From a virus: a DNA stretch of 42,501 nucleotides. The stretch is from positions 1-42,501 of IMG/VR virus record IMGVR_UViG_3300045988_049685; one strand, written 5' to 3'. Shown piece after piece: positions 31,262 through 41,343 of the stretch. A model generated the notes under the pieces. That model did no database searches, was not told the origin of the DNA, and saw only the letters and a program-made list of their open reading frames with translations. Within the stretch, counting starts at the first letter, position 1, and every line of letters starts with the position of its first letter. The position numbers were made by a program, and so were the translations under genes.

Positions 31262-32908
31262 CTAAAATGGTCTCCTGAAAACCTCTATAACCGCCCCGTT
31301 TAAGCTTTGGGCAAACTCAGCAAACATAGCCATTCCGTCTGGAACGTCATCGTGCTTATTCTTTCCCGCTACAGTGTAGGAACATAGCATATCCATCATC
31401 CTGCCGTAATCCGTGTTCCGCTTATACTTGCTTTCATCCAGAAACAGGCAGTGTTCCTTCACCCACGCCGAATTTACAATGATCTTTGTCTCTTTATTTG
31501 CCGTGGTGAACTTCGTCGTGATGTTTGTGATGCCACCCAGTTTCTTCACTTCGTCCTGAATCTTTTCAGCGATCCGGCGGCCAGCGGAGTTACTTTCAAA
31601 CCGGCACATTTTCACCTTGTCCCGCACCAGAATTTCAGACAGTCTTGCATCCACTGTGTCAGGAAGCCCATTGTCGCAGATACAGTCCCCAATATAGTAG
31701 TCCTGCCCATATACATATCCAACCGGCAGAAAGGCGTAGTCAGCGCCCTTGTCCTTGGTATCGCACACGCCGATAATGGCATCTGGTTTCTCTGCTGGCA
31801 GCTCAAAAAACCGCCGCAGTTCGTCAGGACGGTAGACAAGCCCCTCGCGTTCAATGGGTTGATTCTGATACAGCGCTTTCCAACTGACGCTATCCATAAT
31901 ATCCCGCTGTTCCCGGTAGAACTTGGTGGAGAACCCCACGCCAAACTCATAATCAAAATTGCTTTCGTCGTCCTCGTTCATGGCAGGAATCCGAACGAAT
32001 TTCGCCCTGGGATTGTTCTCATATTCCCGTTCCAGCCGCCCAATCACATCATGAACGCTCCACCGGGTAGCAATATGAAGCTCTTTGCATTTGTCACCGA
32101 TTTTACGCTGCCGCAGGTCGGTGGTGTAAGTCTCCCACAGCTTGTCCAGCCGCTCTTTGGATAGCGCGACCTCAATACCAGATACCAGATCGTCGCAATA
32201 CAGCAGGTTCGCCGCCCGGTACAGACCGGCATTGCCCGTTCCTATGGAGGTAAATTCCAGCGTCTCAAATCGCTGCCGCTTATCAAGGTCAATTCGGCAG
32301 TCCTTTGCGTTGGTGCTGGACACCTGAACGGCAGGGAAGACATCATGCCATAGATATTCCCCCTTTGCGTCAAACAGCCGCAGACATTCGTCATACACGC
32401 CCCGCACAAAGGAATTGGAGTGGCTGCCCGTCAGATTCGGGTTGTTTGGGTCGCGGCCGGCAATCCAGGTCAGCAGGAAGATTGCAAGCGTGGTCTTTCC
32501 TACGCCGGGGGGCAAGCTAACCGCCAGCAAATCCAACTTGTCATCCCCGCACAGCGCTTGCAGCGCGTCCACCACGGGCTTTAGCTGCTTCTTCCGTGGC
32601 TGATAAAACCGCTTTTTCGCCTGCCTGTCCAGCTCCATATAGGTGAGATAGCTGTCAAAGTCATATGGAGCCTCAAACAATAGCCCCCGCCGCCAAAGGC
32701 TGTAGAATCCCTCCACCTGAGACATGGGCACTTTATCCATCATTCGGTCGCACATATCCTTCAATTGTTTATTCGCTCGATGTGCCGCCGTGAAATCAGT
32801 CTCAGCCCATGTCTGGCACAGGGAAAACAGGTCTTCATATGCCCCGATATCACCCGGCCTGTTCTCGATAGCCCCCAGAATGGAGGTTGACAATTTCTCA
32901 TAATCCAT
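31262..32908 (-). CDS. terL: terminase large subunit
   Basis: 548 aa. Walker A SLPPGVGKTT, Walker-B-like LLYCDDLVSG, C-terminal nuclease-type acidic motifs. Confidence 0.92.
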   Translation of the reverse strand: MDYEKLSTSILGAIENRPGDIGAYEDLFSLCQTWAETDFTAAHRANKQLKDMCDRMMDKVPMSQVEGFYSLWRRGLLFEAPYDFDSYLTYMELDRQAKKRFYQPRKKQLKPVVDALQALCGDDKLDLLAVSLPPGVGKTTLAIFLLTWIAGRDPNNPNLTGSHSNSFVRGVYDECLRLFDAKGEYLWHDVFPAVQVSSTNAKDCRIDLDKRQRFETLEFTSIGTGNAGLYRAANLLYCDDLVSGIEVALSKERLDKLWETYTTDLRQRKIGDKCKELHIATRWSVHDVIGRLEREYENNPRAKFVRIPAMNEDDESNFDYEFGVGFSTKFYREQRDIMDSVSWKALYQNQPIEREGLVYRPDELRRFFELPAEKPDAIIGVCDTKDKGADYAFLPVGYVYGQDYYIGDCICDNGLPDTVDARLSEILVRDKVKMCRFESNSAGRRIAEKIQDEVKKLGGITNITTKFTTANKETKIIVNSAWVKEHCLFLDESKYKRNTDYGRMMDMLCSYTVAGKNKHDDVPDGMAMFAEFAQSLNGAVIEVFRRPF

Positions 32909-32917
32909 ACTCTCACC

Positions 32918-33250
32918 TCACAGAGCGTCAGCTTGTTCGAATGCTTTCAGCAGTTTGGGAAACTGGATTGCGAAGAAATCCACCATTTCCTCGTTTTGTG
33001 CCCAGTTGGAATTTTCGGCAAGGCCGCTTTCAAATAGAAATGCGTGAATGATCTCATGCCGCTTCACCTTGTTTGTCTGAACCAGAAGGTTTTGCTTGCA
33101 ATTTGGTTCTCCCTTGCTGTCTTCGTAATTTTCAACCAGCATTTCTTTCGTAGTTTCATCACAGAAACCGTCACAATCCTTGAGCCTTGGCTCTTTGCTT
33201 CCCCGAATTACTGTAAGCGTATATTCTGCTCCCAAAACGTCGATTTTCAT
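32918..33250 (-). CDS. small HExxH (zincin-like) protein
   Basis: Start moved to ATG 33250 (CAGGAGGG upstream). 110 aa with the motif RHEIIHAF. Confidence 0.65.
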   Translation of the reverse strand: MKIDVLGAEYTLTVIRGSKEPRLKDCDGFCDETTKEMLVENYEDSKGEPNCKQNLLVQTNKVKRHEIIHAFLFESGLAENSNWAQNEEMVDFFAIQFPKLLKAFEQADAL

Positions 33251-33266
33251 AAATTCCCTCCTGATA

Positions 33267-33338
33267 CAAAAATAAGGGCTGCCCGTGCGTATCTCAGCAC
33301 AAGCAGCCCTTCGGCTTTCCTCCTGCCCTTGCAGGAGG
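33267..33338 (-). terminator. tandem hairpins / intrinsic terminator ending the minus arm of the island
   Basis: Minus strand CCTCCTGC-aagg-GCAGGAGG, then GGGCTGC-19 nt-GCAGCCC followed by TTATTTTTG. Confidence 0.75.
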
Positions 33339-33342
33339 TTTA

Positions 33343-33411
33343 TTACTTTGTATGCTTCATGATCTCTATCAGCACGAATATGGGGAACAGGAGAAGCAAT
33401 AGAAATTCCAT
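33343..33411 (-). CDS. 22-aa hydrophobic peptide (micro-ORF P1)
   Basis: MEFLLLLLFPIFVLIEIMKHTK. The ATG directly abuts the upstream TAA. Paralog of the peptide at 36412-36480. Confidence 0.5.
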   Translation of the reverse strand: MEFLLLLLFPIFVLIEIMKHTK

Positions 33412-33768
33412 TTACTTTTTCACATCCTTGCATACACCTGAATACCCGCAGTCAGAACAAGTGATGACCGTCTGATATGTCTGCGGAACTAAACCGTTTA
33501 CGATTGCACCGATAACCAGCCCGAGTAAAGCTCCCACGATCAAACCGATAATTCCCAGGAACATCAGCCCAAACCCGCCGAATGTCATCACAAGTGGCAC
33601 TGTCAGCTTTGGCTTATACTCTTTCGGTGTTGCCGTGACATTCGCGGAGTTGCACTTAGGGCATCTAACACCGCTCCCTACATCCTCCGTAACCGCCGTT
33701 CCGCACTTGGAACAGAACTTTGCTCCATCGGGTAATTCGCTTCCGCATTTGCTGCATACTCTCTGCAT
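33412..33768 (-). CDS. double zinc-ribbon membrane protein
   Basis: 118 aa. CSKCG..CSKCG and CPKC..CSDCG ribbons flank two TM helices. Confidence 0.7.
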   Translation of the reverse strand: MQRVCSKCGSELPDGAKFCSKCGTAVTEDVGSGVRCPKCNSANVTATPKEYKPKLTVPLVMTFGGFGLMFLGIIGLIVGALLGLVIGAIVNGLVPQTYQTVITCSDCGYSGVCKDVKK

Positions 33769-33772
33769 TTGG

Positions 33773-34141
33773 TTATTCCTCCTTCAAAATCGGCTCATGC
33801 TGCCCGGGAACTGCATCCCAGGTCATTCTCTTTCCGCACAGGGCATAATTAAGATATTGCGTTACCATTTCCGGCGACCTTGCCATTTGGAAGCACAGCA
33901 TTTCCTTCACTCGCCGCATCATGTCATTTTCGCCAGGCACAATCGTAATGCCCTCATTAACCAAATGAACCGTGCAATTCATTTTCTGGCAAGCCTGTAA
34001 AAATGGATAATACTCCGTTTCTCCACCCTCAAACATGAAAATGGATGGTATCTCTACTGTCCCGTCCCGCACAATTACATTGAAGTGTGGAACACTTTTA
34101 TACCGCTCATTTAGTTCGGCATCAGATATTCTTTTCCCCAT
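33773..34141 (-). CDS. hypothetical protein
   Basis: 122-aa ORF tightly packed after the recombinase; no family recognised. Confidence 0.6.
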   Translation of the reverse strand: MGKRISDAELNERYKSVPHFNVIVRDGTVEIPSIFMFEGGETEYYPFLQACQKMNCTVHLVNEGITIVPGENDMMRRVKEMLCFQMARSPEMVTQYLNYALCGKRMTWDAVPGQHEPILKEE

Positions 34142-34150
34142 TTTGCAATC

Positions 34151-34909
34151 TCACCCCTTTAGAATTGCTTCGTGCGTATTCTCACACATTTCTTTGCCGT
34201 ACCGGTAATTCCCCCGGTAGGTATCCTCGTTGCCCAGAATCGTCTGGACTGCGGAGTGCTTGAACTCCTTGCCCTTCTTGCTCCGATATCCTAGCTCATT
34301 CAGCTTGTCTGCGATTCCTTGCAATGTACAGCCCTGGTTTCTCAACTCGAAAACCTTTTTTACAATCTCCGCCTCTTCCGGCACCACTGCAAGATGCCCG
34401 TTTTCAGCCCGATACCCAAGTGGAGGCTTCCCCCCGGCATAGCCGCCCTCTCTGGCTGTAGCATACCGCCCCATGGTAGTTCTTAGGGCGATATTGTCGC
34501 TCTCCAACTGATTAAAGGAAGATAGAATGCCAATCATGGCACGTCCCCACGGGGTAGTGGTATCAAGCGTTTCATTCAGGCTTATGAGGTCAACTCCGTT
34601 TGCCAACAAATCGTCCTCTACAATCGCTAGAGTATCCCGTTGCTTTCTGGAAAGCCGATCTAGCTTAAAAATAACAATAGCTTCGATTTTACCCGCCCGA
34701 ATATCCCGAAGCATTTCTTGAAGCCCCGGACGGTTTGTGTTTCTGCCGGTATACCCGTTGTCCTCATAGGTTTTCACATATTTCCAGCCCTTGCTTTCAA
34801 TGCAGGCTTTCGCCATTCGCTCCTGCTCAGGCAAAGACACTTTCCCGTCCTCTCCCTGAGCCTCTGTAGATACTCTGGTATAGACACATGCCTTTTTCAT
34901 CTCGTACAT
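34151..34909 (-). CDS. serine recombinase, short form (resolvase catalytic domain + recombinase domain, no zinc-ribbon/coiled-coil tail)
   Basis: Start at ATG 34909, downstream of the mapped promoter. ACVYTRVSTEAQ catalytic motif. GGKPPLGYRAENGHLAVVPEEAEIVKKVF recombinase-domain motif. Ends right after HEAIL at 253 aa. Confidence 0.88.
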   Translation of the reverse strand: MYEMKKACVYTRVSTEAQGEDGKVSLPEQERMAKACIESKGWKYVKTYEDNGYTGRNTNRPGLQEMLRDIRAGKIEAIVIFKLDRLSRKQRDTLAIVEDDLLANGVDLISLNETLDTTTPWGRAMIGILSSFNQLESDNIALRTTMGRYATAREGGYAGGKPPLGYRAENGHLAVVPEEAEIVKKVFELRNQGCTLQGIADKLNELGYRSKKGKEFKHSAVQTILGNEDTYRGNYRYGKEMCENTHEAILKG

Positions 34910-34940
34910 TTCTGCTTCCCCCGTACATCTTGTTTTCTGT

Positions 34941-34969
34941 ATAATATCAGATTTACAATTATTTGTCAA
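34941..34969 (-). promoter_or_regulatory. consensus sigma70 promoter TTGACA-17-TATTAT (minus arm of the island)
   Basis: Minus strand TTGACA (fwd 34964-34969), 17-nt spacer, TATTAT (fwd 34941-34946). Confidence 0.7.
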
Positions 34970-35192
34970 CTGTAATAATGCACAAATAAGAACTGCCTTT
35001 TTTGTTTTTGCCGGAATTTCTGAAAAGGGGGGGCTTCTTGATTTCGCGGGTATTTATGGGGTTAACCCCCGCCGAATTAGGCCGGCCATATCCCCCGCCC
35101 CCGGTGCTTTCGCTGCTGCTTCTCCCGTGATGGGGCGGGAAGCGCCGGATTTGATAATTTACATTTTTTCTTGAATTTCTGTAAAATAATGC

Positions 35193-35220
35193 TTGACATT
35201 TACGAAAATATCTATATAAT
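35193..35220 (+). promoter_or_regulatory. consensus sigma70 promoter TTGACA-16-TATAAT (plus arm of the island)
   Basis: TTGACA 35193-35198, TATAAT 35215-35220. Confidence 0.7.
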
Positions 35221-35348
35221 AGTAAATGTAAACAAGAGCAAAACAAAAGCGCCCCCGCAATCCTACCAAGACCAACGGGAGCGCACCACACAAGGGGGCG
35301 CCGCTATTATAGCACGGCCTCCGCAGAATTACAAGGAGGAATATTATA

Positions 35349-35984
35349 ATGATTATCAACGGGAAGAACTATCTATTACTAGAAAAGCGCGGCTGCAATT
35401 TTAATGGCGGCGTCCCGGTCACCACTAAAAGCGACGTTGGAAATTATCGTGTATGCACGATGGGCGAGACGGTCCCCGGCAAAGACGGCCGAAATTATTT
35501 CCTTGAATTCTCCCTTTGGCAGAACCGCAGCCAGCCGCGCTATACCAATAAGCGAACCGGCGCACCACTGAAACACCCCGTGCGAGAGATCATCAACCCC
35601 ATTGGACTACACATCGACACGCAATACACCGACGAAAGCGGCCAATCTTGGCGCAATCTCAACTTGGAACAGCGCATCCACAAACAGAACCCCAGTTACA
35701 CCACGGCCGAGATTCTTGCCATTGCAAACGAGATCAGCGCGGAACACTACGACGGCATTAAATGGGTTTGTTCTTTCTGCGAGACCGTCGAGCATGGCGC
35801 GAACTTTACGCCGGCCGCCCTGATTTCCACCTATGCGAAAAGAAACCGCATGGAAATAGAATCCCGGGTCGGGGCTCTCTGCCTCAGGCTTTACGCCGGG
35901 ACATATAAATATTTGGCCTACGATGTCCGCAGCTTTGGCAGCCGCGATAATGTAACCGTGATTCTTGAGGAGGTGGAAGCATGA
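35349..35984 (+). CDS. hypothetical protein (family seen in Firmicutes mobile elements, function unknown)
   Basis: 211 aa with AAGGAGG 8 nt upstream; no catalytic motif recognised. Confidence 0.7.
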   Translation: MIINGKNYLLLEKRGCNFNGGVPVTTKSDVGNYRVCTMGETVPGKDGRNYFLEFSLWQNRSQPRYTNKRTGAPLKHPVREIINPIGLHIDTQYTDESGQSWRNLNLEQRIHKQNPSYTTAEILAIANEISAEHYDGIKWVCSFCETVEHGANFTPAALISTYAKRNRMEIESRVGALCLRLYAGTYKYLAYDVRSFGSRDNVTVILEEVEA

Positions 35985-36247
35985 ACATTAACGCAATCAT
36001 GGCCGAACTAGCCCAGTATATCCGGATGCAGGAGGAAGCCGCCGCAATGGTGGAGAGCCTGAAAGATCAGCTGAAAGCCCAGATGCAGGCCGCAGGCGTG
36101 GACACGCTGGCCGGGGACGAACACAAGGCCACTTATAAGGCTGTCACAAGTTGCCGAGTGGACACGACCGCCCTAAAAAAAGACCTGCCGGAAATAGCCG
36201 CCCGGTACACAAAAACAACGGAGACCCGCAGATTTACGTTTGCATAA
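35981..36247 (+). CDS. hypothetical coiled-coil protein
   Basis: 88 aa with ATGA overlap. The HKATYKAVTSCRVDTTALKKDLPEIAARYTKTTETRRFTF C-terminal motif recalls small proteins of Firmicutes conjugative elements. Confidence 0.65.
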   Translation: MNINAIMAELAQYIRMQEEAAAMVESLKDQLKAQMQAAGVDTLAGDEHKATYKAVTSCRVDTTALKKDLPEIAARYTKTTETRRFTFA

Positions 36248-36259
36248 GGAGGCAAAACC

Positions 36260-36415
36260 ATGAAAACATACATTTTTACAGCAAGCAAAACCGGGGAAAA
36301 CGTGGATTTTGAAACAACAATTCAGGCAAAAGCGGAACCCGACTTTTGGGACTGCTACGAGTTAGCAGCCTCCCACGGGTGCGAGTTCTGGACTTGTGAG
36401 GAGGTCGGCGCGTGA
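36260..36415 (+). CDS. hypothetical 51-aa acidic Cys-containing protein (below the ORF-track cutoff)
   Basis: MKTYIFTASKTGENVDFETTIQAKAEPDFWDCYELAASHGCEFWTCEEVGA, with AAGGAGG 7 nt upstream. Confidence 0.55.
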   Translation: MKTYIFTASKTGENVDFETTIQAKAEPDFWDCYELAASHGCEFWTCEEVGA

Positions 36416-36480
36416 TTATCCTTGCAATTCTGTTTTTTCCGCTGCTGGTTCTGGCGGAGCTGCTGAAAATAAGCAAATAA
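36412..36480 (+). CDS. 22-aa hydrophobic peptide (micro-ORF P2)
   Basis: GTG start overlaps the upstream TGA (GTGA), with GAGGAGG 7 nt upstream. (M)IILAILFFPLLVLAELLKISK. Paralog of P1. Confidence 0.5.
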   Translation: MIILAILFFPLLVLAELLKISK

Positions 36481-36486
36481 TGTGCA

Positions 36487-36551
36487 AGCCGTCCGAGCAT
36501 TGCCCGGGCGGCTTTCTCTTTGCCCTGCCAACGTGGCGGGGCTTTTCTCTT
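36487..36551 (+). terminator. two tandem terminator-like hairpins ending the plus arm
   Basis: agccgtccg/cgggcggct + TTCTCTTT, then gccctgcc/ggcggggc + TTTTCTCTT. Confidence 0.6.
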
Positions 36552-36911
36552 GCTATGCCCTGTAAGGCTCTCATCAGCTTTTTAAGCGGCTTTTATTCTG
36601 GCAATATAAATTAACGTCAAGCATCGTTCCCGCCTTAAAATGGGCACGTATGGACGCCACGCAATGCCGCACGGTATTTTATGCAGCGCGTGGGGCGCTC
36701 AGCGCCCGCCATTGCCGCCGCTTTCCGTGCCGGATACCAGATCCCGCCGCAACTTTTCGCCCGTCCGACCGCTTTCTGTGCCCCCCTGCGTTCTGCCCGC
36801 TGCTACAGGGTAAAAGCACCGCCACACAGGCCGCACCGGCTCCGATCAGATTTCCCGCCATGTTTTTGCGTCAGGGTTGAAAATCCCCGCAAGGCTCCCA
36901 GCTCGTGAGCC

Positions 36912-37075
36912 ATAGTCGCAAAGTCGCAGCCGAAAATTTCCAATTCATAGTCGCACCATAGTCGTTTTGAAAGTCGCTGGCCATAGTCGCAGAAAGTCGC
37001 CCCGAAAGTCGCAAGACCTCCGGGGCGTTTTCATAGTCGCTATAGTCGCTGGGTCAAAGTCGCTGTTATAGTCGC
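36912..37075 (+). repeat. array of 12 same-orientation octamers A(T/A)AGTCG(C/T)
   Basis: Copies start at 36912, 36920, 36947, 36958, 36970, 36983, 36993, 37005, 37033, 37042, 37056 and 37068. Most spacings are 8-14 bp. Confidence 0.9.
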
Positions 37076-37284
37076 TCGAGCTTCCGACCGCACACTGGGC
37101 AAAAATTCCAAGTCACCGTCATTTGCCGCCCGCTATGGGCAACCACGGTGAATGTTTCCGGTTTGTTCACACACTCTCTGCAAAAGTCGCAGGCGGGTTT
37201 CCTAGCGCCGCCCTCCATCAGCATCCGGATTTGGGCAACCTCTGTGCACATTCGTTCGATGGCGTATTCCGTCTTTTCTCTCAT
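37066..37284 (-). CDS. hypothetical zinc-ribbon protein coupled to terS
   Basis: 72 aa with ATGA overlap with the terS stop. CDFCREC...CPVCG. Confidence 0.65.
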   Translation of the reverse strand: MREKTEYAIERMCTEVAQIRMLMEGGARKPACDFCRECVNKPETFTVVAHSGRQMTVTWNFCPVCGRKLERL

Positions 37285-37829
37285 TCCGTTCCACCCTCCG
37301 CGTCAATGATAGTCGCACCGCTACCGCGAACATCTTCCAGATACTTCTGCCGCAGCTTCTCCGGGTCTGCCCGCTCTCCAAGCGGATTATCCGGCTTTAA
37401 GACCACTTCCTGCTGGTCTGTGTAGTTCATATTGTTTTTCATCAAAAAAATTCCGGCAACGGGGTTAATCTTGCCATTTTGCATGAAATCTTCCATCTGA
37501 GCGTTGATTAAATCCCGTGCTTTTTTGATAGTGTCACGCACAGAGTCGCTTAAATCCCTGCTTCTAGGCTGATTATTGCACCATCTCCACATGGTCATTC
37601 TGTCCACCCCGAACGCCAAAGCGAATCCTGCGAAAGTCGGCTTCATATCATTCTCAGCGCACAGGCTGAAATAGTCGAAGCACCGTTTCTGTACCGCCTC
37701 CAAGCTGTCCATGTCCGGCTTGTCCCACTTCATGATAGTCATGGAATGGCTAATGTACTTGGTATTATCTCCTGGTTCCAGATCAGGAACTTGATAAGGC
37801 TTCTTTTTGAGTTTATTGCTTTCCGCCAA
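37281..37829 (-). CDS. terS: terminase small subunit
   Basis: 182 aa. HTH KPTFAGFALAFGVDRMTMWRWCN, typical of Firmicutes phage TerS. First gene after an AT-rich promoter-like region. Confidence 0.8.
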   Translation of the reverse strand: MAESNKLKKKPYQVPDLEPGDNTKYISHSMTIMKWDKPDMDSLEAVQKRCFDYFSLCAENDMKPTFAGFALAFGVDRMTMWRWCNNQPRSRDLSDSVRDTIKKARDLINAQMEDFMQNGKINPVAGIFLMKNNMNYTDQQEVVLKPDNPLGERADPEKLRQKYLEDVRGSGATIIDAEGGTE

Positions 37830-37958: not shown

Positions 37959-38627
37959 TCATTCTTTGACTTCCGTTGGAAACTCGACTGTGATTTTAAC
38001 CACGTTCCCACCGTAGAACGAGACTGATTTGGTCGTTCCTATGAGTTCTTTTGCCGCAGCTCCGTCATCGCTCTTGGTAGTAAACGCAAATATGCGATCT
38101 TTCCCAATTAAGCCCAAAAATTCATTAGCGTTTATGCGTACACCCTCACGGAACTTTATACTGAAAGAATATACTCTAGGCCCTCCTCTCCCATCGAGTG
38201 ATGGTTTTTCACCGTCCTGCTCCGAGGCGCCATTTCCCTTGAGCCTAACGCCCTCCGGTGCTTGTAAAAGTTCATAGTATCCGTTTCTACGCCCTTGCGT
38301 TATCCTCAGCCTATCTTCCGCTCCAAGGCCAAGGCACCGGCTGAATGCGTGGCTGTCCAAATCCGGCTCTGCTGGCGCGGCCTTAAACTCCCACCGCTCA
38401 GAGCCGTCATGCTCCGCTCTCTCAAGCCACCAATCGTCACCGGCCACAATCAGGTCCCCGGGTATTTCTGCAATGCCGTATCCATTGTCGTACTCAAAGT
38501 TTGCTTGTTTTGCAAAGTCGTCCCAGCTGCACTTCGCATTGGCAGACTCTCTGCCAACCCACCGCACATCCGCAGGGGTTTTGCCGTTTTCTTTGAGAAT
38601 ATTCAAGGTTTCATTCAAAAGATTCAT
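37959..38627 (-). CDS. hypothetical protein
   Basis: 222-aa ORF; no family recognised. Confidence 0.65.
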   Translation of the reverse strand: MNLLNETLNILKENGKTPADVRWVGRESANAKCSWDDFAKQANFEYDNGYGIAEIPGDLIVAGDDWWLERAEHDGSERWEFKAAPAEPDLDSHAFSRCLGLGAEDRLRITQGRRNGYYELLQAPEGVRLKGNGASEQDGEKPSLDGRGGPRVYSFSIKFREGVRINANEFLGLIGKDRIFAFTTKSDDGAAAKELIGTTKSVSFYGGNVVKITVEFPTEVKE

Positions 38628-38628
38628 A

Positions 38629-38997
38629 CTATCCCCTCCATTTCCCGATCTTATAGTCGTACTCTTTCAGGCAATCGTACCGCTCCCGGAACGGGAAGAA
38701 CGTCTCACCGTTTCCATTATACGCTTCCATGAGAGCCTTGTCCAGCTGTTCTTGATACCAATCCGCTTCATCGTTTGGCAGGAACGCCGGGCGGAAATAC
38801 TGCATGATTTCGTTGGTTTTCTTCAGGACTTTCAGGATTCTTGCGCCGCTAAATGTGTCCTTTCCCATGGTCTCCGGGTCTCGCAAGGCCAGTGAAATAT
38901 AGTCGCACATTTGCTGTGTCCCGAGTTCCCAACCATCGTTGAAGCACTGCCGCTGAACAGCCTCCTGCTTGGCAAGATACGCATTTTGTTTTGCCAT
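38629..38997 (-). CDS. hypothetical protein
   Basis: Start moved to ATG 38997 (GAAAGGAAAAG upstream). 122 aa. Confidence 0.6.
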   Translation of the reverse strand: MAKQNAYLAKQEAVQRQCFNDGWELGTQQMCDYISLALRDPETMGKDTFSGARILKVLKKTNEIMQYFRPAFLPNDEADWYQEQLDKALMEAYNGNGETFFPFRERYDCLKEYDYKIGKWRG

Positions 38998-39023
38998 ATG
39001 CTTTTCCTTTCTTTTCTTAGTAA

Positions 39024-39092
39024 ATCCCTGTATAGAACTATAACAACATACACACAAGATATAGAATTATATTATATATACTATACAGGGAT
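39024..39092. repeat. AT-rich intergenic element copy B bracketed by a perfect 12-bp inverted repeat
   Basis: atccctgtatag at 39024-39035 and ctatacagggat at 39081-39092. The 45-nt spacer is copy B of the AT-rich element. Confidence 0.75.
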
Positions 39093-39096
39093 AAAG

Positions 39097-39279
39097 CTAT
39101 AATATTAAATTTCGTCTCCTGTTTTTCGTTTTCTCCCTCCTTTCGGTACAATCCTTCCCAGGCGGGCAAGGCCGCTTTTTCCCGTGGACGAATATGTAAT
39201 TGCAGCACCGGCTGCCTTCGCAATATCCGAAGAAATACCGGCACCCGACGCAATACTTCCTGCCGTCCCTGTACTCCAC
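39097..39279 (-). CDS. hypothetical Cys-rich 60-aa protein (GTG start)
   Basis: YCVGCRYFFGYCEGSRCCNYIFVHGKKRPCPPGKDC. It has higher GC3 than the overlapping 39105-39281 frame. The choice of frame is uncertain. Confidence 0.4.
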   Translation of the reverse strand: MEYRDGRKYCVGCRYFFGYCEGSRCCNYIFVHGKKRPCPPGKDCTERREKTKNRRRNLIL

Positions 39280-39297
39280 ATTACCGCCCCGTTTCCA

Positions 39298-39963
39298 TCA
39301 CAGGATAATCCGCTGCTGTGCTGTATATTCTGCCCACACCGCCTCCTGTTTTTCAAAATATTCCTTGTCAATTTCCGTTCCTACAAAATCCAGATCGAAA
39401 TCATACGCCGCCCGCCGGGAGCTACCGCTACCAAGATGAGTATCCAGAATCTTGAATCCCGGCTTCGTGTAGTGGGCGTATATCCATCGGTATAATTCTT
39501 CCGGCTTTTGAGTTGGGTGAAATCTGCCCGCTATGCCCGCAGATGACATTTTGATAACTTTCGCGTTATCGTTGAAACTGCACCAAGCATATTCCGCCAT
39601 TGCCATAGAAAAGTTTTCCGGTATATTTGTTTTCAGCCAGACCAAAAAGCATCTGTTGGGTGGGAGCTGGAAATAGTTCCCGCCCCATATGATTTGCTCC
39701 TTGCTCACCCGGAAAAGCTCATTGAAATAGTCCTCGCCGGGGGCATAGTCCCAGCTCGTGATTTTTTTCCGAACTTTGCCGCCCACTTTCCTCCCGTCCG
39801 GGCAATCTTGCAGGTACCTGTCAAAGCGTCCACCGAAGCGGGTGCCGCTGACGAACTCCCCCCCCCCGCTTCCATACGGCGGATCGACTACAGCCAAGTC
39901 GAAATATTTATCCGGATACTCCCGCATGATTTCCATGCAATCAGCGTTAAGCGCAATATTCAC
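39298..39963 (-). CDS. DNA methyltransferase (beta-class N6A/N4C, DPPY)
   Basis: Motif IV AVVDPPYG precedes FHPTQKPEELYRWIY and motif I ILDTHLGSGSS. Confidence 0.9.
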   Translation of the reverse strand: MNIALNADCMEIMREYPDKYFDLAVVDPPYGSGGGEFVSGTRFGGRFDRYLQDCPDGRKVGGKVRKKITSWDYAPGEDYFNELFRVSKEQIIWGGNYFQLPPNRCFLVWLKTNIPENFSMAMAEYAWCSFNDNAKVIKMSSAGIAGRFHPTQKPEELYRWIYAHYTKPGFKILDTHLGSGSSRRAAYDFDLDFVGTEIDKEYFEKQEAVWAEYTAQQRIIL

Positions 39964-40256
39964 ATCGTGCCACCTCTTTCCGCTTTCCTGTCACGGTATC
40001 TCCTTTTGGCGGCTCTCTGAGCGTGGGCTTTTTGGCACTCCAAACTGCAATAGATTTTCTGCTTGATCTTGCCCTGCGTAAATTCCTTCCCGCACTGTGG
40101 GCAGATTTTGGAAATGCCCTGCGGGGCTTCCACGTCCTCCACATCGGCCTGAATCGGCGGGTGGTATCCGTGCATTGCCATGTACTTCCCGTATCTCGTC
40201 CCAGCCTTCTGGGCGGCTATGGAGCACAGGGTGAGATAGTCCGGCTTCTTGCTCAT
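39960..40256 (-). CDS. hypothetical zinc-ribbon protein
   Basis: 98 aa. CPQCG...CSLEC. ATGA overlap with the methyltransferase start. Confidence 0.65.
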   Translation of the reverse strand: MSKKPDYLTLCSIAAQKAGTRYGKYMAMHGYHPPIQADVEDVEAPQGISKICPQCGKEFTQGKIKQKIYCSLECQKAHAQRAAKRRYRDRKAERGGTM

Positions 40257-40414
40257 TGCTGTTGTGCCTCCCGTGGCAGTTTGATTTCTGCCCCATCGTG
40301 CAGATCGTCGCTATCCAGTGCATAGGTCACCATCGTCAGCCCGCTGCGTGTTTCCACTACGCCGTTCAGGAAACTGCAGCCCATACCATCGGGAATATCA
40401 AGTGTGATTTTCAT
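40253..40414 (-). CDS. hypothetical 53-aa protein (below the ORF-track cutoff)
   Basis: MKITLDIPDGMGCSFLNGVVETRSGLTMVTYALDSDDLHDGAEIKLPREAQQQ. GGAGAAA upstream. ATGA overlap with the next gene. Confidence 0.5.
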   Translation of the reverse strand: MKITLDIPDGMGCSFLNGVVETRSGLTMVTYALDSDDLHDGAEIKLPREAQQQ

Positions 40415-40787
40415 TCGATTTTCTCCTTTCTCCGTAGCTGCAAAAGTCGTTCATTTCCACGCAAACAGCCTCGCCCTTGTAGCCTCTGACATTTGGGTAA
40501 GGCTCGGTATGCAGCATACACATAGGGTTTTCGTCCCCCTGCCGGTGGATACAGTCTTTGCACCGAACTATGTGGAGCGTTTCAATGAACCCGTCTGCGA
40601 AACCAGCATCATACCCCGCCTTGTACTGCCCCCTATCATATTTCAGAGCTTTCAGAAGTTCTTCCCGATTCACCCGGATACCAATTTTTATAATTGCCTG
40701 TACTACGGCATCGCCGATAGCATCCTGAAAGTCGCTTAAATTCAAGCTGGCAGGTGGGGTGTAGCCGTTAAGTTCTTCCATTTTCAT
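40398..40787 (-). CDS. hypothetical protein with C-terminal RCKDCI...DFCSYGERR module
   Basis: Start moved to ATG 40787 (AAAGGAGG upstream). The C-terminal Cys module is paralogous to the next gene. Confidence 0.65.
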   Translation of the reverse strand: MKMEELNGYTPPASLNLSDFQDAIGDAVVQAIIKIGIRVNREELLKALKYDRGQYKAGYDAGFADGFIETLHIVRCKDCIHRQGDENPMCMLHTEPYPNVRGYKGEAVCVEMNDFCSYGERRKSNENHT

Positions 40788-41082
40788 CCTCCTTTCGCTC
40801 CCCATAACTGCAAAAATCATCGCCGTCTACCTCGTTAGGGGACATGCCCTGCTCATATTGCCAATGATAGCAATACCCAAATGGCGTTCCTCCTTTGTTG
40901 GTGGGGTGCTTGCCTATTTCCTCAAATGCAATGCAGTCCCGGCACCTTACCACGGGGACGGCATTTCTCCCCCGTTCCAACGCCTCCATGCCCATTCGGC
41001 AGGCTTCGTTCACCTCGTCCATGCCGTCGTAATGCTCCCGGTGTCCCGGGTCAAGAATTTCAATTGCTCGGTCAATCGTCAT
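40768..41082 (-). CDS. hypothetical protein with C-terminal RCRDCI...DFCSYGERK module
   Basis: 104-aa ORF that shares its Cys module with 40398-40787. Confidence 0.65.
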   Translation of the reverse strand: MTIDRAIEILDPGHREHYDGMDEVNEACRMGMEALERGRNAVPVVRCRDCIAFEEIGKHPTNKGGTPFGYCYHWQYEQGMSPNEVDGDDFCSYGERKEDENGRT

Positions 41083-41341
41083 CGCCCTTATCCTCCTTAT
41101 CCTCCAAGAGGTGCTGAACAGCGAGCGTGTTCAAAACGTGTGTAAATTCCAAAATATCCCAATTGTTATGGGTAATTCGCCCCGCAACAACGCGCATTGC
41201 GAACAGCATAGCGGTTAAATCCTCCGTGAAATCGCCGCCCAAATACATCTTTGGGAGTGCCGGTAGCTCACGATCTTCCTCATCTTTGTAAACGTCCGCT
41301 AACGCAGCTCCAAAAATTGATGTTTTCATAAACAAATCCAT
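41072..41341 (-). CDS. hypothetical acidic protein
   Basis: Start moved to ATG 41341 (GGAGGAG upstream). 89 aa. Confidence 0.6.
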   Translation of the reverse strand: MDLFMKTSIFGAALADVYKDEEDRELPALPKMYLGGDFTEDLTAMLFAMRVVAGRITHNNWDILEFTHVLNTLAVQHLLEDKEDKGDDD

Positions 41342-41343
41342 GA

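What the first reader, a model, noticed from the sequence alone, without database searches (positions are those of the whole stretch)
32918..37075. A self-contained 4.15-kb accessory island splits terS from terL
terS (37281-37829) and its coupled 72-aa gene are separated from terL (31262-32908) by 4,157 nt, although the two are normally adjacent.

The insert has two back-to-back consensus host-type promoters: TTGACA-17-TATTAT on minus at 34941-34969, and TTGACA-16-TATAAT on plus at 35193-35220.

Minus arm:
- A serine recombinase that stops right after its recombinase domain (253 aa, no zinc-ribbon/coiled-coil tail).
- A 122-aa unknown.
- A double-zinc-ribbon membrane protein.
- A 22-aa peptide.
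- Tandem terminators at 33267-33338, then a 110-aa HExxH protein just before terL.

Plus arm (antisense to the late operon):
- A 211-aa unknown and an 88-aa coiled-coil protein, both reminiscent of Firmicutes conjugative-element genes.
- A 51-aa acidic Cys protein.
- A second 22-aa peptide.
- Two or three terminators, followed by about 390 bp of GC-rich non-coding DNA.

Both arms are insulated from the phage late genes and should be expressed in the lysogen. The layout looks like an acquired module: a mobile cassette, a lysogenic-conversion or defence island, or a recombinase-controlled switch. I cannot match it to a described system.
Basis: partly seen in the sequence, partly recalled or inferred. 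Interest (0 to 1): 0.78.

Follow-up and report, generated by a model that had tools for sequence, protein, structure and literature searches.

The report
Hypervariable accessory-gene locus between terS and terL
The 4.15 kb between the two terminase genes is not a one-off insertion: every related phage has an accessory-gene site there, with a fixed scaffold, swappable cargo and a short serine recombinase that probably represses both of its promoters, and this makes it a promising but uncharacterised place to look for new phage accessory functions.

Summary

The reading as an acquired, self-contained insert does not hold.
- All 64 related viral contigs that carry both terminase genes (terL 69-99% identical) also have 2.8-6.5 kb between them.
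- The 63 gaps that could be compared, this window's included, fall into 46 different architectures.
- A phage whose terL is only 36% identical carries an 81% identical recombinase at the same position.

The locus has a conserved scaffold:
- a GCGACTW heptamer array after terS, a candidate pac site;
- a 107-nt leader that contains a terminator;
- a 22-aa membrane peptide gene plus terminators at the end of each arm;
- the HExxH gene in front of terL.

It has three swappable slots: a regulator, cargo on the late strand and cargo on the opposite strand.

In this phage the regulator is a 253-aa "mini" large-serine-type recombinase. Its catalytic residues are intact and the short length is normal for its family. 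Three cognate palindromes overlap both promoters. One of them is a 28-bp crossover-like site that occurs once per genome.

I read the island as two terminator-bounded "moron" operons, probably repressed by the recombinase as resolvase does at res. The cargo functions remain unknown. I found no evidence for an inversion switch or for a mobile cassette.

Verdict: a new variant of a known kind, of moderate to high interest.

The parts
32918..33250 (-). 110-aa HExxH protein gene. It belongs to the conserved scaffold and ends 9 nt before the terL start.
   Evidence: ORF. phrog_1233 at E 1.5e-20. A homologue is found in most related loci and tracks the backbone rather than the cargo (tblastn table). 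No Pfam or PDB match.
33262..33342 (-). Tandem intrinsic terminators that close the late-strand arm.
   Evidence: Two hairpins, -44.4 kcal/mol, z -6.7, the second followed by AUUUUUGU. Both hairpins were also flagged. The RBS of the HExxH gene follows directly, which leaves no room for a promoter.
33343..33411 (-). 22-aa hydrophobic peptide gene (MEFLLLLLFPIFVLIEIMKHTK), the last gene of the late-strand arm.
   Evidence: The family is present in 52 of the 63 usable gaps and always ends an arm. pN/pS is 0.39-0.58 with pS saturated. The window's two copies are 51% identical as DNA but keep the peptide pattern. A recurrent homology breakpoint lies at 33390. No Pfam or NCBIfam hit.
33412..33768 (-). 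Cargo: 118-aa membrane protein with an N-terminal double zinc ribbon, then CxxC, a hydrophobic stretch and a second CxxC (LITAF-like layout).
   Evidence: Zn_Ribbon_1 E 1.9e-11, DZR 1.1e-8, zf-LITAF-like 0.017. In close relatives a 266-aa membrane/tRNA_anti-like protein takes its place.
33773..34141 (-). Cargo: 122-aa protein of unknown function. It is chimeric: its last 27 aa come from the 3' end of another recombinase subtype.
   Evidence: 59% identity over 29 aa to the C-terminus of the 258-aa recombinase of L002, E 5e-5. The body belongs to a family of ~100-aa proteins with 100 representatives. The AF2 model has pLDDT 80; its Foldseek hits to resolvase catalytic domains are weak and hhalign is negative.
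34151..34912 (-). 253-aa 'mini' serine recombinase: catalytic domain, alpha-E helix and a shortened recombinase domain, ending at the HEAIL motif.
   Evidence: Pfam Resolvase and Recombinase. It covers positions 81-343 of 651 in phrog_95 integrase and 5-240 of 542 in CcrB. Best PDB match is the TP901-1 integrase catalytic domain, E 1e-28. At least 120 homologue clusters, nearly all 250-258 aa long. RVST and DRLSR are invariant. All subtypes end at HE[PA]IL.
34941..34976 (-). Recombinase promoter (TTGACA-17-TATTAT) overlapped by the palindrome TTTAC-N15-GTAAT (site C, 34952-34976).
   Evidence: Conserved in 20 distinct upstream regions, including distant phages.
34985..35130 (.). Conserved GC-rich non-coding element between the promoters. 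Its function is unexplained.
   Evidence: Conserved with either type of regulator. No stable RNA fold on either strand (z +1.2 and +1.4). It is the insertion point of a 312-aa HNH-like gene in L134 and other loci.
35158..35185 (.). Site B: the 28-bp palindrome TTTACA-N4-TTC-TT-GAA-N4-TGTAAA. It is the candidate crossover site and an upstream operator.
   Evidence: Unique in the window even with 3 mismatches allowed; expected 0.00. Found in 25 stretches among 2.9 million viral contigs, once each. In 24 of them the recombinase gene lies 248-358 bp away (about 1.3 kb in three); the 25th stretch is too short to include the gene. Its interior is flipped relative to both flanks in L037, L066 and L081.
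35193..35226 (+). Plus-arm promoter (TTGACA-16-TATAAT) overlapped by the palindrome TTTAC-N18-GTAAA (site A, 35199-35226).
   Evidence: the pattern occurs only twice in the window, 41 bp apart, against 0.00 expected. Conserved.
35238..35351 (.). Conserved leader of about 107 nt. On the minus strand it carries an intrinsic terminator (35288 down to 35238) preceded by TTGTAA-17-TGcTATAAT (35334 down to 35306), which could give a cis-antisense RNA of about 60 nt. On the plus-strand mRNA it carries a CCUCC...GGAGG hairpin that sequesters the RBS.
   Evidence: Present in 47 loci as 33 variants, whatever the cargo. The consensus fold is -27.3 on the minus strand against -12.2 on the plus strand, with compensatory pairs. 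Promoter-like site with 10 of 12 matches and TG. Hairpins. The weak ctRNA_p42d resemblance is not significant (E 0.57).
35349..35984 (+). Cargo: 211-aa protein of unknown function with a confidently predicted fold and no close structural neighbour.
   Evidence: 176 homologues, none with a Pfam domain. AF2 pLDDT 94. Best PDB match E 0.028 at TM 0.13. One uncharacterised siphovirus protein in BFVD. A 132-aa homologue also lies between terS and terL in an unrelated phage.
35981..36247 (+). Cargo: 88-aa protein, a free-standing copy of the C-terminal domain of the phage's own YqaJ-type exonuclease.
   Evidence: 31% identity over 84 aa to residues 247-323 of the ORF at 4007-4993(-), E 4e-6. phrog_6244 at 9e-14 and the C-terminal part of phrog_434 (RecE-like) at 2e-10.
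36260..36415 (+). Cargo: 51-aa acidic protein with 3 Cys.
   Evidence: ORF. pI 4.2. No family hit. It co-occurs with the 88-aa gene in relatives.
36412..36480 (+). Second 22-aa peptide gene (MIILAILFFPLLVLAELLKISK). It overlaps the upstream stop codon (GTGA).
   Evidence: Homology to relatives resumes at 36421.
36486..36550 (+). Two terminator hairpins that close the plus arm.
   Evidence: -37.2 kcal/mol, z -3.5, each followed by a U-rich run. One of them was listed.
36913..37075 (-). Array of 11 GCGACTW heptamers, all on one strand, directly after terS and the 72-aa gene. It is a candidate TerS-binding or pac region, preceded by about 350 bp of conserved GC-rich spacer (36560-36910).
   Evidence: 13 of the window's 16 copies lie within 400 bp. 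Arrays of 4-11 copies on the same strand sit directly after terS in most relatives, including ones whose terS is 35-55% identical. terS is of the P22 gp3 type (GP3_package, E 1.4e-10).
37066..37829 (-). terS (37281-37829) and the translationally coupled 72-aa zinc-ribbon gene (37066-37284). These form the upstream boundary.
   Evidence: The 72-aa gene is missing in part of the relatives.

Best explanation
**What it is.** The 4.15 kb is this phage's version of a hypervariable accessory-gene locus found across its lineage. The locus always lies between terS, with its heptamer array, and terL.

**How it is built (shown by comparison).** A conserved scaffold frames three swappable slots.
- The scaffold is:
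  - the heptamer array and GC-rich spacer;
  - a 22-aa peptide gene plus terminators at the end of each arm;
  - the 107-nt leader;
  - a GC-rich element between the promoters;
  - the HExxH gene.
- The slots are a regulator, cargo on the late strand (mostly membrane or secreted proteins) and cargo on the opposite strand (small soluble proteins).

**How it most likely works (inferred).**
- Two back-to-back host-type promoters drive two terminator-bounded operons. These are classical "morons": they can be expressed without phage factors, in the lysogen or straight after DNA entry.
- Late transcription from upstream must read through at least three intrinsic terminators to reach terL.
- The first gene of the late-strand arm is the regulator. 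Here it is a 253-aa mini serine recombinase. Its palindromes overlap both promoters, so it probably represses both arms, as Tn3 resolvase does at res or Aca proteins do at anti-CRISPR promoters.
- The recombinase keeps its catalytic residues and a 28-bp crossover-like site that occurs once per genome. Any recombination it carries out must therefore be between two genome copies: dimers, concatemers or terminally redundant ends.
- Cargo is reshuffled among phages by recombination inside scaffold sequences, not at the recombinase site.

What the cargo proteins do is not known.
For: **Position conserved, content variable.**
- 64 of 64 relatives that carry both terminase genes have a gap of 2.8-6.5 kb.
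- The 63 comparable gaps, window included, give 46 architectures.
- The conservation profile drops from 55-64 loci over terL to 6-25 loci inside the gap, with a local peak of 36 at the leader.

**Scaffold and breakpoints.**
- Homology breakpoints recur at 33390, 33773, 35245-35351 and 36421.
- The leader is present in 47 loci.
- The peptide gene is present in 52 of 63 gaps.
- Heptamer arrays follow terS in most relatives.

**Autonomous transcription units.** Near-consensus promoters and strong terminators.

**Regulator slot.**
- 43 of 65 gaps, window included, carry a short serine recombinase.
- Most of the others carry a small HTH gene at that place.
- The palindromes change with the regulator:
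  - TTTACA half-sites with the 253-aa type;
  - TTACGG with the 258/266-aa type and TTACGT with the L047 type; the L056-type half-site is less clear, TTTGCA or ATTTAC;
  - TCTAGTG with the HTH type.
- Whatever the type, the palindromes overlap the -35/-10 elements of the recombinase promoter and of the divergent promoter.

**The recombinase is a real family, not a truncation.**
- At least 120 clusters, nearly all 250-258 aa.
- Catalytic motifs are invariant.
- All subtypes share the same C-terminal end point.

**Site B is tied to the gene.** It occurs in 25 stretches among 2.9 million viral contigs, once each. In 24 of them the recombinase gene lies 248-358 bp away, or about 1.3 kb in three.

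**The same families sit at the same position in unrelated phages.**
- In L081 the recombinase is 81% identical while terL is 36% identical.
- In L123 a homologue of the 211-aa protein lies between a Terminase_2 terS and a Terminase_3 terL.
Against: - There are no expression data. The promoters, the terminators and the antisense RNA are sequence predictions only.
- Binding of the recombinase to the palindromes is inferred from their position and from co-variation. It has not been shown.
- No cargo protein has a known function. "Accessory" therefore rests on variability and layout alone.
- The region upstream of terS is also poorly conserved. The gap is thus one mosaic region among others, not a unique hotspot.
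- In some relatives an HTH gene precedes the recombinase (L002, L063, L077). There the recombinase may be cargo rather than the regulator.
- Most loci come from a single metagenome (3300045988), so they are not independent samples.
Confidence: 0.6

Rival explanations
1. **Leading-end early-gene island.** This is an add-on to the main model rather than an alternative.

The locus lies just downstream of pac in a headful-packaging phage. For the first capsids of each packaging series it would then fall in the terminal redundancy. That is the last DNA packaged and the first DNA injected.

Its host-type promoters would fire before any other phage gene. The products would be takeover or counter-defence proteins, and the auto-repressor would then shut the promoters down. 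The logic is that of conjugative-plasmid leading regions and of acr-aca operons.
For: - terS is of the P22 gp3 headful type, and a one-strand heptamer array sits right after it in most relatives.
- The same small-gene families occupy the terS-terL interval in phages with unrelated terminases.
- Both promoters are near consensus, and palindromes overlap them.
- One cargo protein copies a domain of the phage's own recombination exonuclease.
- "Last in, first out" is established knowledge for SPP1, lambda and T7. I give this from my own knowledge; no paper was read for it.
Against: - The pac site, the packaging direction and the size of the redundancy are all unknown for this phage.
- No cargo protein matches a known anti-defence or defence family.
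- The late-strand cargo looks like typical lysogen-expressed surface or exclusion proteins, not early takeover genes.
Confidence: 0.25
2. **Cyclisation or dimer-resolution module, as with Cre/lox.**

The mini recombinase and its single 28-bp site, placed about 1.8 kb downstream of the candidate pac, would recombine the two site copies present in terminally redundant injected DNA, or in replicative dimers. This would circularise or monomerise the genome without host recombination.
For: - The catalytic residues are kept across subtypes that are only about 35% identical.
- Site B has the geometry 6+4+3 | 2 | 3+4+6, with a non-palindromic AA/TT centre, like res site I or hix.
- There is one copy per genome.
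- The polarity of the site relative to its flanks is free to flip (L037, L066, L081). That is expected only if the partner is another copy of the same genome.
- Host-type promoter.
- The link to terS holds across very different phages.
- P1 places loxP and cre close to pac. I give this from my own knowledge; the P1 genome paper was not available.
Against: - The phage has its own RecT and YqaJ exonuclease, which can circularise redundant ends.
- It also has a tyrosine integrase.
- The distance from terS to the site varies from about 1.5 to over 5 kb among relatives, which is more than many terminal redundancies.
- 22 of 65 loci, window included, manage without any recombinase.
- Site B may simply be an operator.
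Confidence: 0.2
3. **The first reader's model.** The segment is a self-contained mobile cassette recently inserted between adjacent terS and terL, moved by its own recombinase.
For: - The recombinase-plus-122-aa module is 97-99% identical among phages whose flanks are 81-96% identical, which indicates recent lateral spread.
- A 64% identical recombinase with the same control region lies next to apparently chromosomal genes in an Oscillospiraceae MAG.
Against: - No relative shows an empty site.
- There are no terminal repeats or target duplication.
- The exchange breakpoints fall in scaffold sequences (the peptide genes, the leader, the stop codon of the 122-aa gene) and not at the recombinase site.
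- The scaffold is shared by loci with and without the recombinase.
Confidence: 0.07
4. **Recombinase-controlled invertible switch.** The recombinase would flip a promoter or an arm to change expression, as in Hin/Gin systems or gut invertons.
For: - The soluble-protein arm has the opposite orientation in a distant clade (L064, L070-72, L077-80).
- L063 and L065 differ by an inverted module.
- The promoters are back to back.
Against: - There is only one site B in the window, even with 3 mismatches allowed.
- No inverted repeats flank the promoters or the arms.
- Among 63 gaps, no pair of otherwise near-identical sequences differs by an inversion. The inverted segment of L063/L065 is 81-84% identical against 94% for its flanks, which points to an old module exchange.
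Confidence: 0.05
5. **Conserved packaging accessories.** The genes would be late-expressed partners of the terminase.
For: - Position inside the packaging module.
- The HExxH gene and the 72-aa zinc-ribbon gene travel with terL and terS respectively.
Against: - Gene content differs in 46 of 63 gaps.
- One arm is antisense to the late genes.
- The locus has its own promoters and terminators.
- Much of the late-strand cargo in this window and in relatives has membrane-anchor or lipoprotein signatures, and two carry zinc-ribbon or OB-like domains.
Confidence: 0.03

Closest known systems
Morons in the late operons of temperate phages (lambdoid phages, HK97/HK022; Hendrix and colleagues). Cited from my own knowledge.
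   Same: Extra genes sit between essential late genes and carry their own host-type promoter and intrinsic terminator. They are present in some relatives and not in others. Late transcription must read through them.
   Different: - Here the site is fixed and is occupied in every relative.
- It is bipartite and divergent.
- It has a conserved scaffold (leader, peptide genes, GC-rich element).
- It has a dedicated regulator slot.
Anti-CRISPR (acr-aca) operons of Pseudomonas Mu-like phages and related anti-defence loci. Cited from my own knowledge.
   Same: - A fixed position inside the structural or late region.
- A strong promoter and highly variable small cargo genes.
- A conserved DNA-binding gene in the operon, with inverted-repeat operators that overlap the promoter.
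   Different: - The regulator is often a catalytically intact serine recombinase instead of an HTH protein.
- The regulator gene comes first, not last, and there are two arms.
- No cargo matches a known Acr or anti-defence family.
Tn3 / gamma-delta resolvase and its res site
   Same: - A serine recombinase gene lies next to an intergenic region with divergent promoters.
- That region holds three dimer-binding palindromes of unequal spacing: 28, 28 and 25 bp here, against 28, 34 and 25 bp in res (the res figures are from my own knowledge).
- Binding to such sites would repress both genes.
   Different: - The DNA-binding part is a shortened large-serine-recombinase "recombinase domain" and not HTH_7.
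- Site C lies about 200 bp from sites A and B.
- There is one site set per replicon and no transposase.
Large serine recombinases (TP901-1, A118, Bxb1 and phiC31 integrases; CcrB)
   Same: - The closest sequence relatives are the TP901-1 catalytic domain at E 1e-28, phrog_95 at 3e-91 and CcrB at 1.6e-43.
- The Recombinase domain PF07508 is present.
   Different: - The protein ends at the HE[PA]IL motif.
- It lacks the rest of the recombinase domain, the zinc ribbon and the coiled coil. Those parts bind the outer att half-sites and control directionality.
- The phage integrates with a separate tyrosine integrase.
Cre/loxP of phage P1. Cited from my own knowledge.
   Same: A single-site recombinase module sits a few kb from pac in a headful-packaging phage. 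It is able to act only on two genome copies.
   Different: - This is a serine recombinase, not a tyrosine one.
- The function is untested.
- The module is dispensable in a third of the relatives.
Genes inserted between TerS and TerL in Ca. Heliusvirales gut phages (preprint 10.64898/2026.05.11.724261)
   Same: Variable, genus-specific genes lie inside the packaging module of Bacillota gut phages. Both the insertion site and the content vary.
   Different: - It is another phage family, whose packaging module is defined by an HNH gene before TerS.
- The passages I read describe the genes as auxiliary metabolic genes. They mention no scaffold, regulator or recombinase.

Membership tests
Large serine recombinase (LSR) | N-terminal resolvase-type catalytic domain with a serine nucleophile | tested here: met
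   PF00239 at E 2.7e-37. TP901-1 integrase catalytic domain at E 1e-28. YTRVST and DRLSR are invariant in 17 homologues.
Large serine recombinase (LSR) | Recombinase domain (PF07508) after helix E | tested here: met
   55.8 bits against a cut-off of 21.1, but only profile positions 1-87 of 102. The protein stops at HEAIL.
Large serine recombinase (LSR) | C-terminal zinc-ribbon domain with an embedded coiled coil | tested here: not met
   The protein has 253 aa. It aligns to positions 81-343 of 651 in phrog_95 and 5-240 of 542 in CcrB. Nearly all of the 120 listed homologues are 250-258 aa long, up to 310 at most. No downstream ORF supplies the missing part: the 122-aa ORF has no zinc ribbon.
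Small serine recombinase (resolvase/invertase) | Catalytic domain followed by a short C-terminal HTH (HTH_7) domain, about 180-200 aa in all | tested here: not met
   The C-terminal part matches PF07508, and no HTH_7 hit appeared. True 190-199-aa resolvase-type proteins do occupy the same slot in other relatives.
Small serine recombinase (resolvase/invertase) | Two recombination sites per replicon, in direct repeat (res) or inverted repeat (hix/gix) | tested here: not met
   One copy of the 28-bp site in the window with 3 mismatches allowed. One copy per contig in the 25 matching IMG/VR stretches.
Small serine recombinase (resolvase/invertase) | Dimer-binding palindromes, including a crossover site with a 2-bp central overlap | tested here: inconclusive
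   The sequence geometry fits: TTTACA-N4-TTC-AA/TT-GAA-N4-TGTAAA. Neither binding nor cleavage has been tested.
Moron (autonomous transcription unit inside a late operon) | Own promoter and own terminator around the extra genes | tested here: met
   Sequence level only. Promoters with 12/12 and 11/12 matches. Terminator hairpins with z -6.7 and -3.5.
Moron (autonomous transcription unit inside a late operon) | Present or different in some relatives, between conserved neighbours | tested here: met
   46 architectures in 63 gaps between the conserved terS and terL.
Moron (autonomous transcription unit inside a late operon) | Expressed from the repressed prophage | not testable with these tools
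   This needs RNA-seq of a lysogen.
acr-aca type anti-defence operon | A conserved DNA-binding gene in the operon, with inverted repeats that overlap the operon promoter | tested here: met
   Palindromes overlap both promoters and change with the regulator type. An HTH regulator is found in relatives.
acr-aca type anti-defence operon | Cargo homologous to known anti-defence proteins, or shown to block a defence system | tested here: not met
   No Pfam, NCBIfam or PADLOC hit, and no informative PHROG hit, for the window's cargo or for 20 cargo families of relatives. Activity cannot be tested here.
Known anti-phage defence systems (PADLOC) | Match to a defence-system protein model | tested here: not met
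   No hits for any of the window's ORFs. Among relatives' cargo, only an FtsK/HerA-type ATPase in L081 matches, and only to the ATPase domain of SspH and mad8.
Integron-like cassette platform | A tyrosine IntI recombinase, attI next to a cassette promoter, and attC repeats at the end of each cassette | tested here: not met
   The recombinase is of the serine type. No repeated cassette-end sites were found. Breakpoints lie in the leader and in the peptide genes.
Invertible promoter / shufflon | Inverted repeats flanking the flipped segment, and both orientations present in populations | tested here: not met
   No flanking inverted repeats. No inverted alleles among close relatives.
Type I toxin peptides (Fst/Ldr-like), considered for the 22-aa peptides | A family match, plus an antisense RNA overlapping the peptide's mRNA | tested here: not met
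   No Pfam, NCBIfam or Rfam match. The resemblance (a hydrophobic helix with a Pro, then a charged tail) is recalled from memory only. The peptide genes are translationally coupled last genes of operons, not separate units.

The most novel reading that the evidence does not exclude
The interval directly downstream of pac would be a dedicated "leading-end" compartment in a broad set of headful-packaging phages of gut Clostridia.

- **Position.** The interval lies in the terminal redundancy of the first capsids filled, so it is the first DNA to enter a new host.
- **Expression.** It carries host-promoter-driven, auto-repressed, rapidly exchanged takeover or counter-defence genes. This would be the phage counterpart of the leading region of conjugative plasmids.
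- **Recombinase.** The mini serine recombinase would do two jobs with its single 28-bp site. It would shut both promoters off, and it would circularise or monomerise the incoming terminally redundant genome, as Cre/lox does in P1.
- **Peptide.** The 22-aa membrane peptide that ends each arm would be a third, still unknown, functional part.
Probability: 0.15. Interest if true: 0.8.

Novelty: new variant of a known kind. Interest (0 to 1): 0.6.

Why it matters
**A place to look for new functions.** Fixed genomic sites where phages keep rapidly exchanged accessory genes have been among the most productive places to find new defence, counter-defence and host-manipulation proteins. Examples are the P2/P4 hotspots and the acr loci.
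- This locus supplies such a site for a large and almost unstudied group of gut Clostridia phages.
- It has clear landmarks (heptamer array, leader, peptide gene, terminators), so cargo can be harvested automatically from metagenomes.
- Dozens of cargo families have no known relatives. One of them has a confidently predicted fold with no close structural neighbour.

**A compact recombinase.** The locus also brings out a coherent family of ~250-aa serine recombinases. They are built like large serine recombinases but always end inside the recombinase domain, and each has a candidate 28-bp site and operator set.
- If active, they are minimal enzymes of possible interest as tools.
- They would also be a natural case of a recombinase doubling as a repressor outside transposons.

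**A practical point for annotation.** Separation of terS from terL is the norm in this lineage, so it should not be read as an insertion or as a sign of a defective prophage.

Tried and rejected
- **Close annotated relatives.** There are none in INPHARED at the DNA level. The best terL match is 44% identical (Clostridium phage Maintenon), so annotated genomes gave no help.
- **Known RNA families.** None in 32800-37400. The only hits are far below threshold.
- **The GC-rich element 34985-35130 as a structured RNA.** Rejected: it folds no better than shuffled sequence on either strand.
- **Inversion switch.** All-against-all comparison of the gaps found inverted matches only between L063, L065, L077 and L080, and these are diverged modules. 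No flanking inverted repeats were found.
- **Recombinase-mediated cassette exchange at site B.** Rejected: the exchange breakpoints map to the leader, the peptide genes and the stop codon of the 122-aa gene.
- **The recombinase as a truncated pseudogene, or split with the 122-aa ORF as its missing half.** Rejected by the family-wide length and end point and by the lack of any zinc ribbon in the 122-aa ORF.
- **The 122-aa protein as a degenerate resolvase domain.** The Foldseek hits point that way but are weak. hhalign against the recombinase family is negative except for the transplanted tail. Its relatives are ~100-aa stand-alone proteins. The question stays open.
- **Cargo function.** Pfam, PHROGs, NCBIfam, PADLOC, PDB sequence search and two structure searches gave nothing usable.
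- **A late-gene activator or antiterminator upstream of terS.** None was recognised; that region holds methyltransferases and an HNH protein.
- **Host.** The only hint is a 64% identical recombinase in an Oscillospiraceae MAG.
- **A paper to cite for P1 lox/pac.** None was available in the library.

Full report

Yes.

The 110-aa HExxH protein starts at the internal ATG at 33250. The PHROG alignment begins at residue 62 of the longer 171-aa ORF. The recombinase starts at 34912, which gives the 253 aa typical of its homologues.

The consensus scan found both promoters exactly where stated. They are TTGACA-16-TATAAT at 35193-35220 on the plus strand, with 12 of 12 matches, and TTGACA-17-TATTAT at 34969-34941 on the minus strand, with 11 of 12 matches.

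Folding confirmed the terminators:
- two strong hairpins after the first peptide gene (33262-33345, minus strand, z -6.7);
- two after the second peptide gene (36478-36560, plus strand, z -3.5).

The surroundings are those of a temperate siphovirus-like phage:
- a tyrosine integrase at 11007-12161, RecT, a YqaJ exonuclease and an HTH repressor;
- late genes on the minus strand;
- a P22-gp3-type terS and a PHROG-38 terL.

**2. It is not an insertion peculiar to this phage.**

A search of IMG/VR with terL returned 80 related loci, 69-99% identical. In all 64 that also contain terS, the two genes lie 2.8-6.5 kb apart. None has them adjacent.

The 63 comparable gaps, including this window's, fall into 46 architectures at 90% mutual coverage or more. 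The window's combination is unique.

A per-position count of how many relatives align to the window gives this profile:

| Region | Loci aligning (of 64) |
|---|---|
| terL | 55-64 |
| Inside the gap | 6-25 |
| 35200-35300 (leader) | 36 |
| terS | 30-42 |

The region upstream of terS is also poorly conserved. terS with its downstream array is therefore a conserved islet in mosaic DNA.

The arrangement reaches well beyond this lineage.
- An 81% identical recombinase sits between terS and terL in a phage whose terL is only 36% identical (L081).
- A 68% identical recombinase sits downstream of a terS in L082; that contig ends before terL.
- A homologue of the 211-aa protein lies in an 8-kb interval between a Terminase_2 terS and a Terminase_3 terL (L123).

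A 2026 preprint reports variable genes between TerS and TerL in another family of gut phages.

**3. Anatomy: a conserved scaffold with three swappable slots.**

Homology between the window and its relatives breaks at the same places again and again:
- 33390, inside the first peptide gene;
- 33773, the stop codon of the 122-aa gene;
- 35245-35351;
- 36421, inside the second peptide gene.

The scaffold elements, in late-gene order, are these.

(a) *Heptamer array.* Eleven same-strand GCGACTW heptamers lie in 163 bp directly after terS and the 72-aa gene. Thirteen of the window's 16 copies fall within 400 bp. The array recurs after terS in most relatives, including ones whose terS is only 35-55% identical. 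I read it as a candidate TerS-binding or pac region. This is an inference.

(b) *GC-rich spacer.* A conserved GC-rich spacer of about 350 bp follows the array.

(c) *Peptide genes.* A 22-aa peptide gene plus terminators ends each arm.

(d) *Leader.* This is 107 nt long (35245-35351) and is present in 47 loci as 33 variants, whatever gene follows it.

(e) *GC-rich element.* It lies at 34985-35130, between the promoters.

(f) *HExxH gene.* It lies directly in front of terL.

Between these elements lie the three slots.
- *Regulator slot.*
- *Late-strand cargo.* Here these are the 122-aa protein and the zinc-ribbon membrane protein. In relatives the slot holds membrane-anchored tRNA_anti-like proteins, lipoproteins and other transmembrane proteins.
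- *Opposite-strand cargo.* Here these are the 211-, 88- and 51-aa proteins. Relatives carry many other small soluble proteins, and L081 and L082 carry an FtsK/HerA-type ATPase.

**4. The regulator slot and the recombinase.**

Of the 65 gaps, window included, 43 carry a short serine recombinase at this position. Most of the rest carry an HTH gene of about 80 aa, and a few carry both.

The window's protein is not a truncated integrase.
- The 120 best homologue clusters are 68-98% identical and nearly all 250-258 aa long.
- The catalytic motifs YTRVST and DRLSR are invariant.
- All ~250-266-aa subtypes, only about 35% identical to one another, end at the same HE[PA]IL motif.
- Its nearest relatives are large serine recombinases: TP901-1, phrog_95 and CcrB. 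It lacks the distal recombinase domain, the zinc ribbon and the coiled coil.

The intergenic region holds three palindromes:
- site A, TTTAC-N18-GTAAA at 35199-35226, between the -35 and just past the -10 of the plus-arm promoter;
- site B, the same pattern at 35158-35185, 41 bp upstream of site A;
- site C, TTTAC-N15-GTAAT at 34952-34976, over the recombinase's own -35 and spacer.

The N18 pattern occurs only at these two places in 42.5 kb, against 0.00 expected.

The three sites are conserved in 20 distinct upstream regions. These include L081, L082 and an Oscillospiraceae MAG.

The half-sites change with the protein:
- TTACGG with the 258/266-aa subtype;
- TTACGT with the L047 subtype;
- TTTGCA or ATTTAC with the L056 subtype, which is less clear;
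- TCTAGTG with the HTH regulator.

In every case the palindromes overlap the same promoter elements. This co-variation is my main argument that the first gene's product binds there and represses both arms. Binding itself has not been shown.

**5. Can the recombinase recombine, and what?**

Site B has the geometry of a serine-recombinase crossover site. It reads TTTACA-N4-TTC-AA/TT-GAA-N4-TGTAAA, which is 28 bp around a non-palindromic 2-bp centre.
- It is unique in the window even with three mismatches allowed.
- The exact pattern occurs in only 25 stretches among 2.9 million IMG/VR contigs, once each. In 24 of them the recombinase gene lies 248-358 bp away, or about 1.3 kb where a gene has been inserted. 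The 25th stretch is too short to include the gene.
- In L037, L066 and L081 the interior of the site is flipped relative to both flanks.

A site whose polarity is free and which has no partner in the same genome fits recombination between two genome copies: dimers, concatemers or terminally redundant ends. It argues against an inversion or excision switch.

I found no inverted alleles among close relatives and no flanking inverted repeats. The exchange breakpoints are not at site B.

A Cre/lox-like role is attractive because the module sits next to the candidate pac in very different phages. It is weakened by three facts:
- the phage has its own RecT and exonuclease;
- the distance to terS varies;
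- a third of the relatives lack any recombinase.

**6. Other regulatory features.** All of these are inferred from sequence.

On the minus strand the leader folds into a conserved terminator: GCGCUCCC...GGGGGCGC followed by UUUUGUUUUGC.
- The consensus fold is -27.3 on the minus strand against -12.2 on the plus strand, with compensatory pairs (single-sequence fold).
- It is preceded by a conserved TTGTAA-17-TGcTATAAT.
- Together these would give an antisense RNA of about 60 nt against the 5' UTR of the plus arm.

On the plus strand a CCUCC...GGAGG hairpin sequesters the RBS. It shows one compensatory U-A to C-G change.

The RBS of the HExxH gene follows the tandem terminators directly. Transcription of terL must therefore read through them, which is the classical design of a moron.

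**7. The 22-aa peptides.**

The family has the pattern M-x(2,3)-LLILLFP-x(2)-VL-x-E-x(2)-K-x(2)-K.
- It occurs in 52 of 63 gaps, and twice in 29 of them.
- It is always the last gene of an arm, including in the clade where the arm is inverted.
- It occurs nowhere else in the window, and in none of 20 shuffled copies of the window.
- The window's two copies are 51% identical as DNA, with pS 0.89 against pN 0.40. The pooled pN/pS is 0.39-0.58 with pS saturated.

The peptide is therefore very likely translated and under selection. Its function is unknown, and it matches no family.

**8. Cargo.**

Nothing matches a known defence or counter-defence family.
- *The 211-aa protein.* It gives a confident model (pLDDT 94) with no PDB neighbour. 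Its only match in BFVD is an uncharacterised viral protein.
- *The 88-aa protein.* It is a free copy of the C-terminal domain of the phage's own YqaJ exonuclease.
- *The 122-aa protein.* It is a chimera whose tail comes from the 3' end of another recombinase subtype. This documents how modules are joined.

**9. Verdict.**

The best explanation, at confidence 0.6, is a lineage-wide, bipartite moron locus with a conserved scaffold. A mini serine recombinase probably serves as auto-repressor, and it may also act on its single site between genome copies.

The locus is a new variant of known kinds: morons, acr-aca-like operons and resolvase/res regulation. Its cargo and its peptide remain unknown, which is where its interest lies.

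Noticed in passing
window 36913-37075 (also 37184 and 37310): Eleven same-strand WAGTCGC heptamers in 163 bp directly downstream of terS and the 72-aa gene. The array recurs after terS in most relatives, including distant ones. It is a candidate TerS-binding or pac array.
   Followed up: partly
window 33343-33411 (-) and 36412-36480 (+): Two paralogous 22-aa hydrophobic peptides, each with a conserved Pro and Glu and a basic tail, each ending one arm. The family occurs in 52 of 63 related gaps, shows purifying selection and matches no database family.
   Followed up: partly
window 35238-35351: A conserved 107-nt leader. On the minus strand it has a promoter-like element and a terminator, which could give an antisense RNA of about 60 nt. 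On the plus-strand mRNA it has a hairpin that sequesters the RBS.
   Followed up: partly
window 34985-35130; L134 1540-2640: A conserved GC-rich non-coding element (GGGGGCGGGGGATATGG...GGGGTTARCCCC...AAATACCCGC) with no predicted RNA structure. In several relatives a 312-aa gene with an HNH-like motif (judged by eye; Pfam is negative) is inserted exactly inside it, as if it were a homing target.
   Followed up: partly
window 33773-33860 (3' end of the 122-aa gene): The last 27 aa of the 122-aa protein derive from the C-terminus of a different recombinase subtype; the final 10 aa, GQHEPILKEE, are identical. This is a fossil of the recombination event that joined the modules.
   Followed up: yes
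window 35981-36247 (+) and 4007-4993 (-): The 88-aa cargo protein is homologous to the C-terminal domain of the phage's own YqaJ-type exonuclease: 31% identity over 84 aa. It could be a decoy or an adaptor for the RecT partner.
   Followed up: partly
L063 6460-7860 versus L065 3360-4615: Two relatives whose flanks are 94% identical carry the soluble-protein arm in opposite orientations. The shared segments are only 81-84% identical. The whole arm also has the opposite orientation in the clade L064, L070-72 and L077-80.
   Followed up: partly
L081 1179-2285; L082 3113-3823: In distant phages with the same recombinase, the opposite-strand arm ends with an FtsK/HerA-type ATPase. It matches the ATPase domain of SspH (E 1.5e-56) and of mad8 in PADLOC, but it is not a complete system.
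   Followed up: no
L083 6600-11132 (Oscillospiraceae MAG JAFLUL010000021): A 64% identical mini recombinase with the same control region lies next to a SASP gene, a peptidase gene and a mazF-like gene, and is followed by a second, 232-aa resolvase. No terminase gene is present on the stretch held. The context is unclear.
   Followed up: no
window 38000-42501: The region upstream of terS is also poorly conserved among relatives. It encodes DNA methyltransferases and an HNH protein. A near-consensus promoter (TTAACA-18-TATAAT, 37947-37918, minus strand) precedes terS.
   Followed up: no
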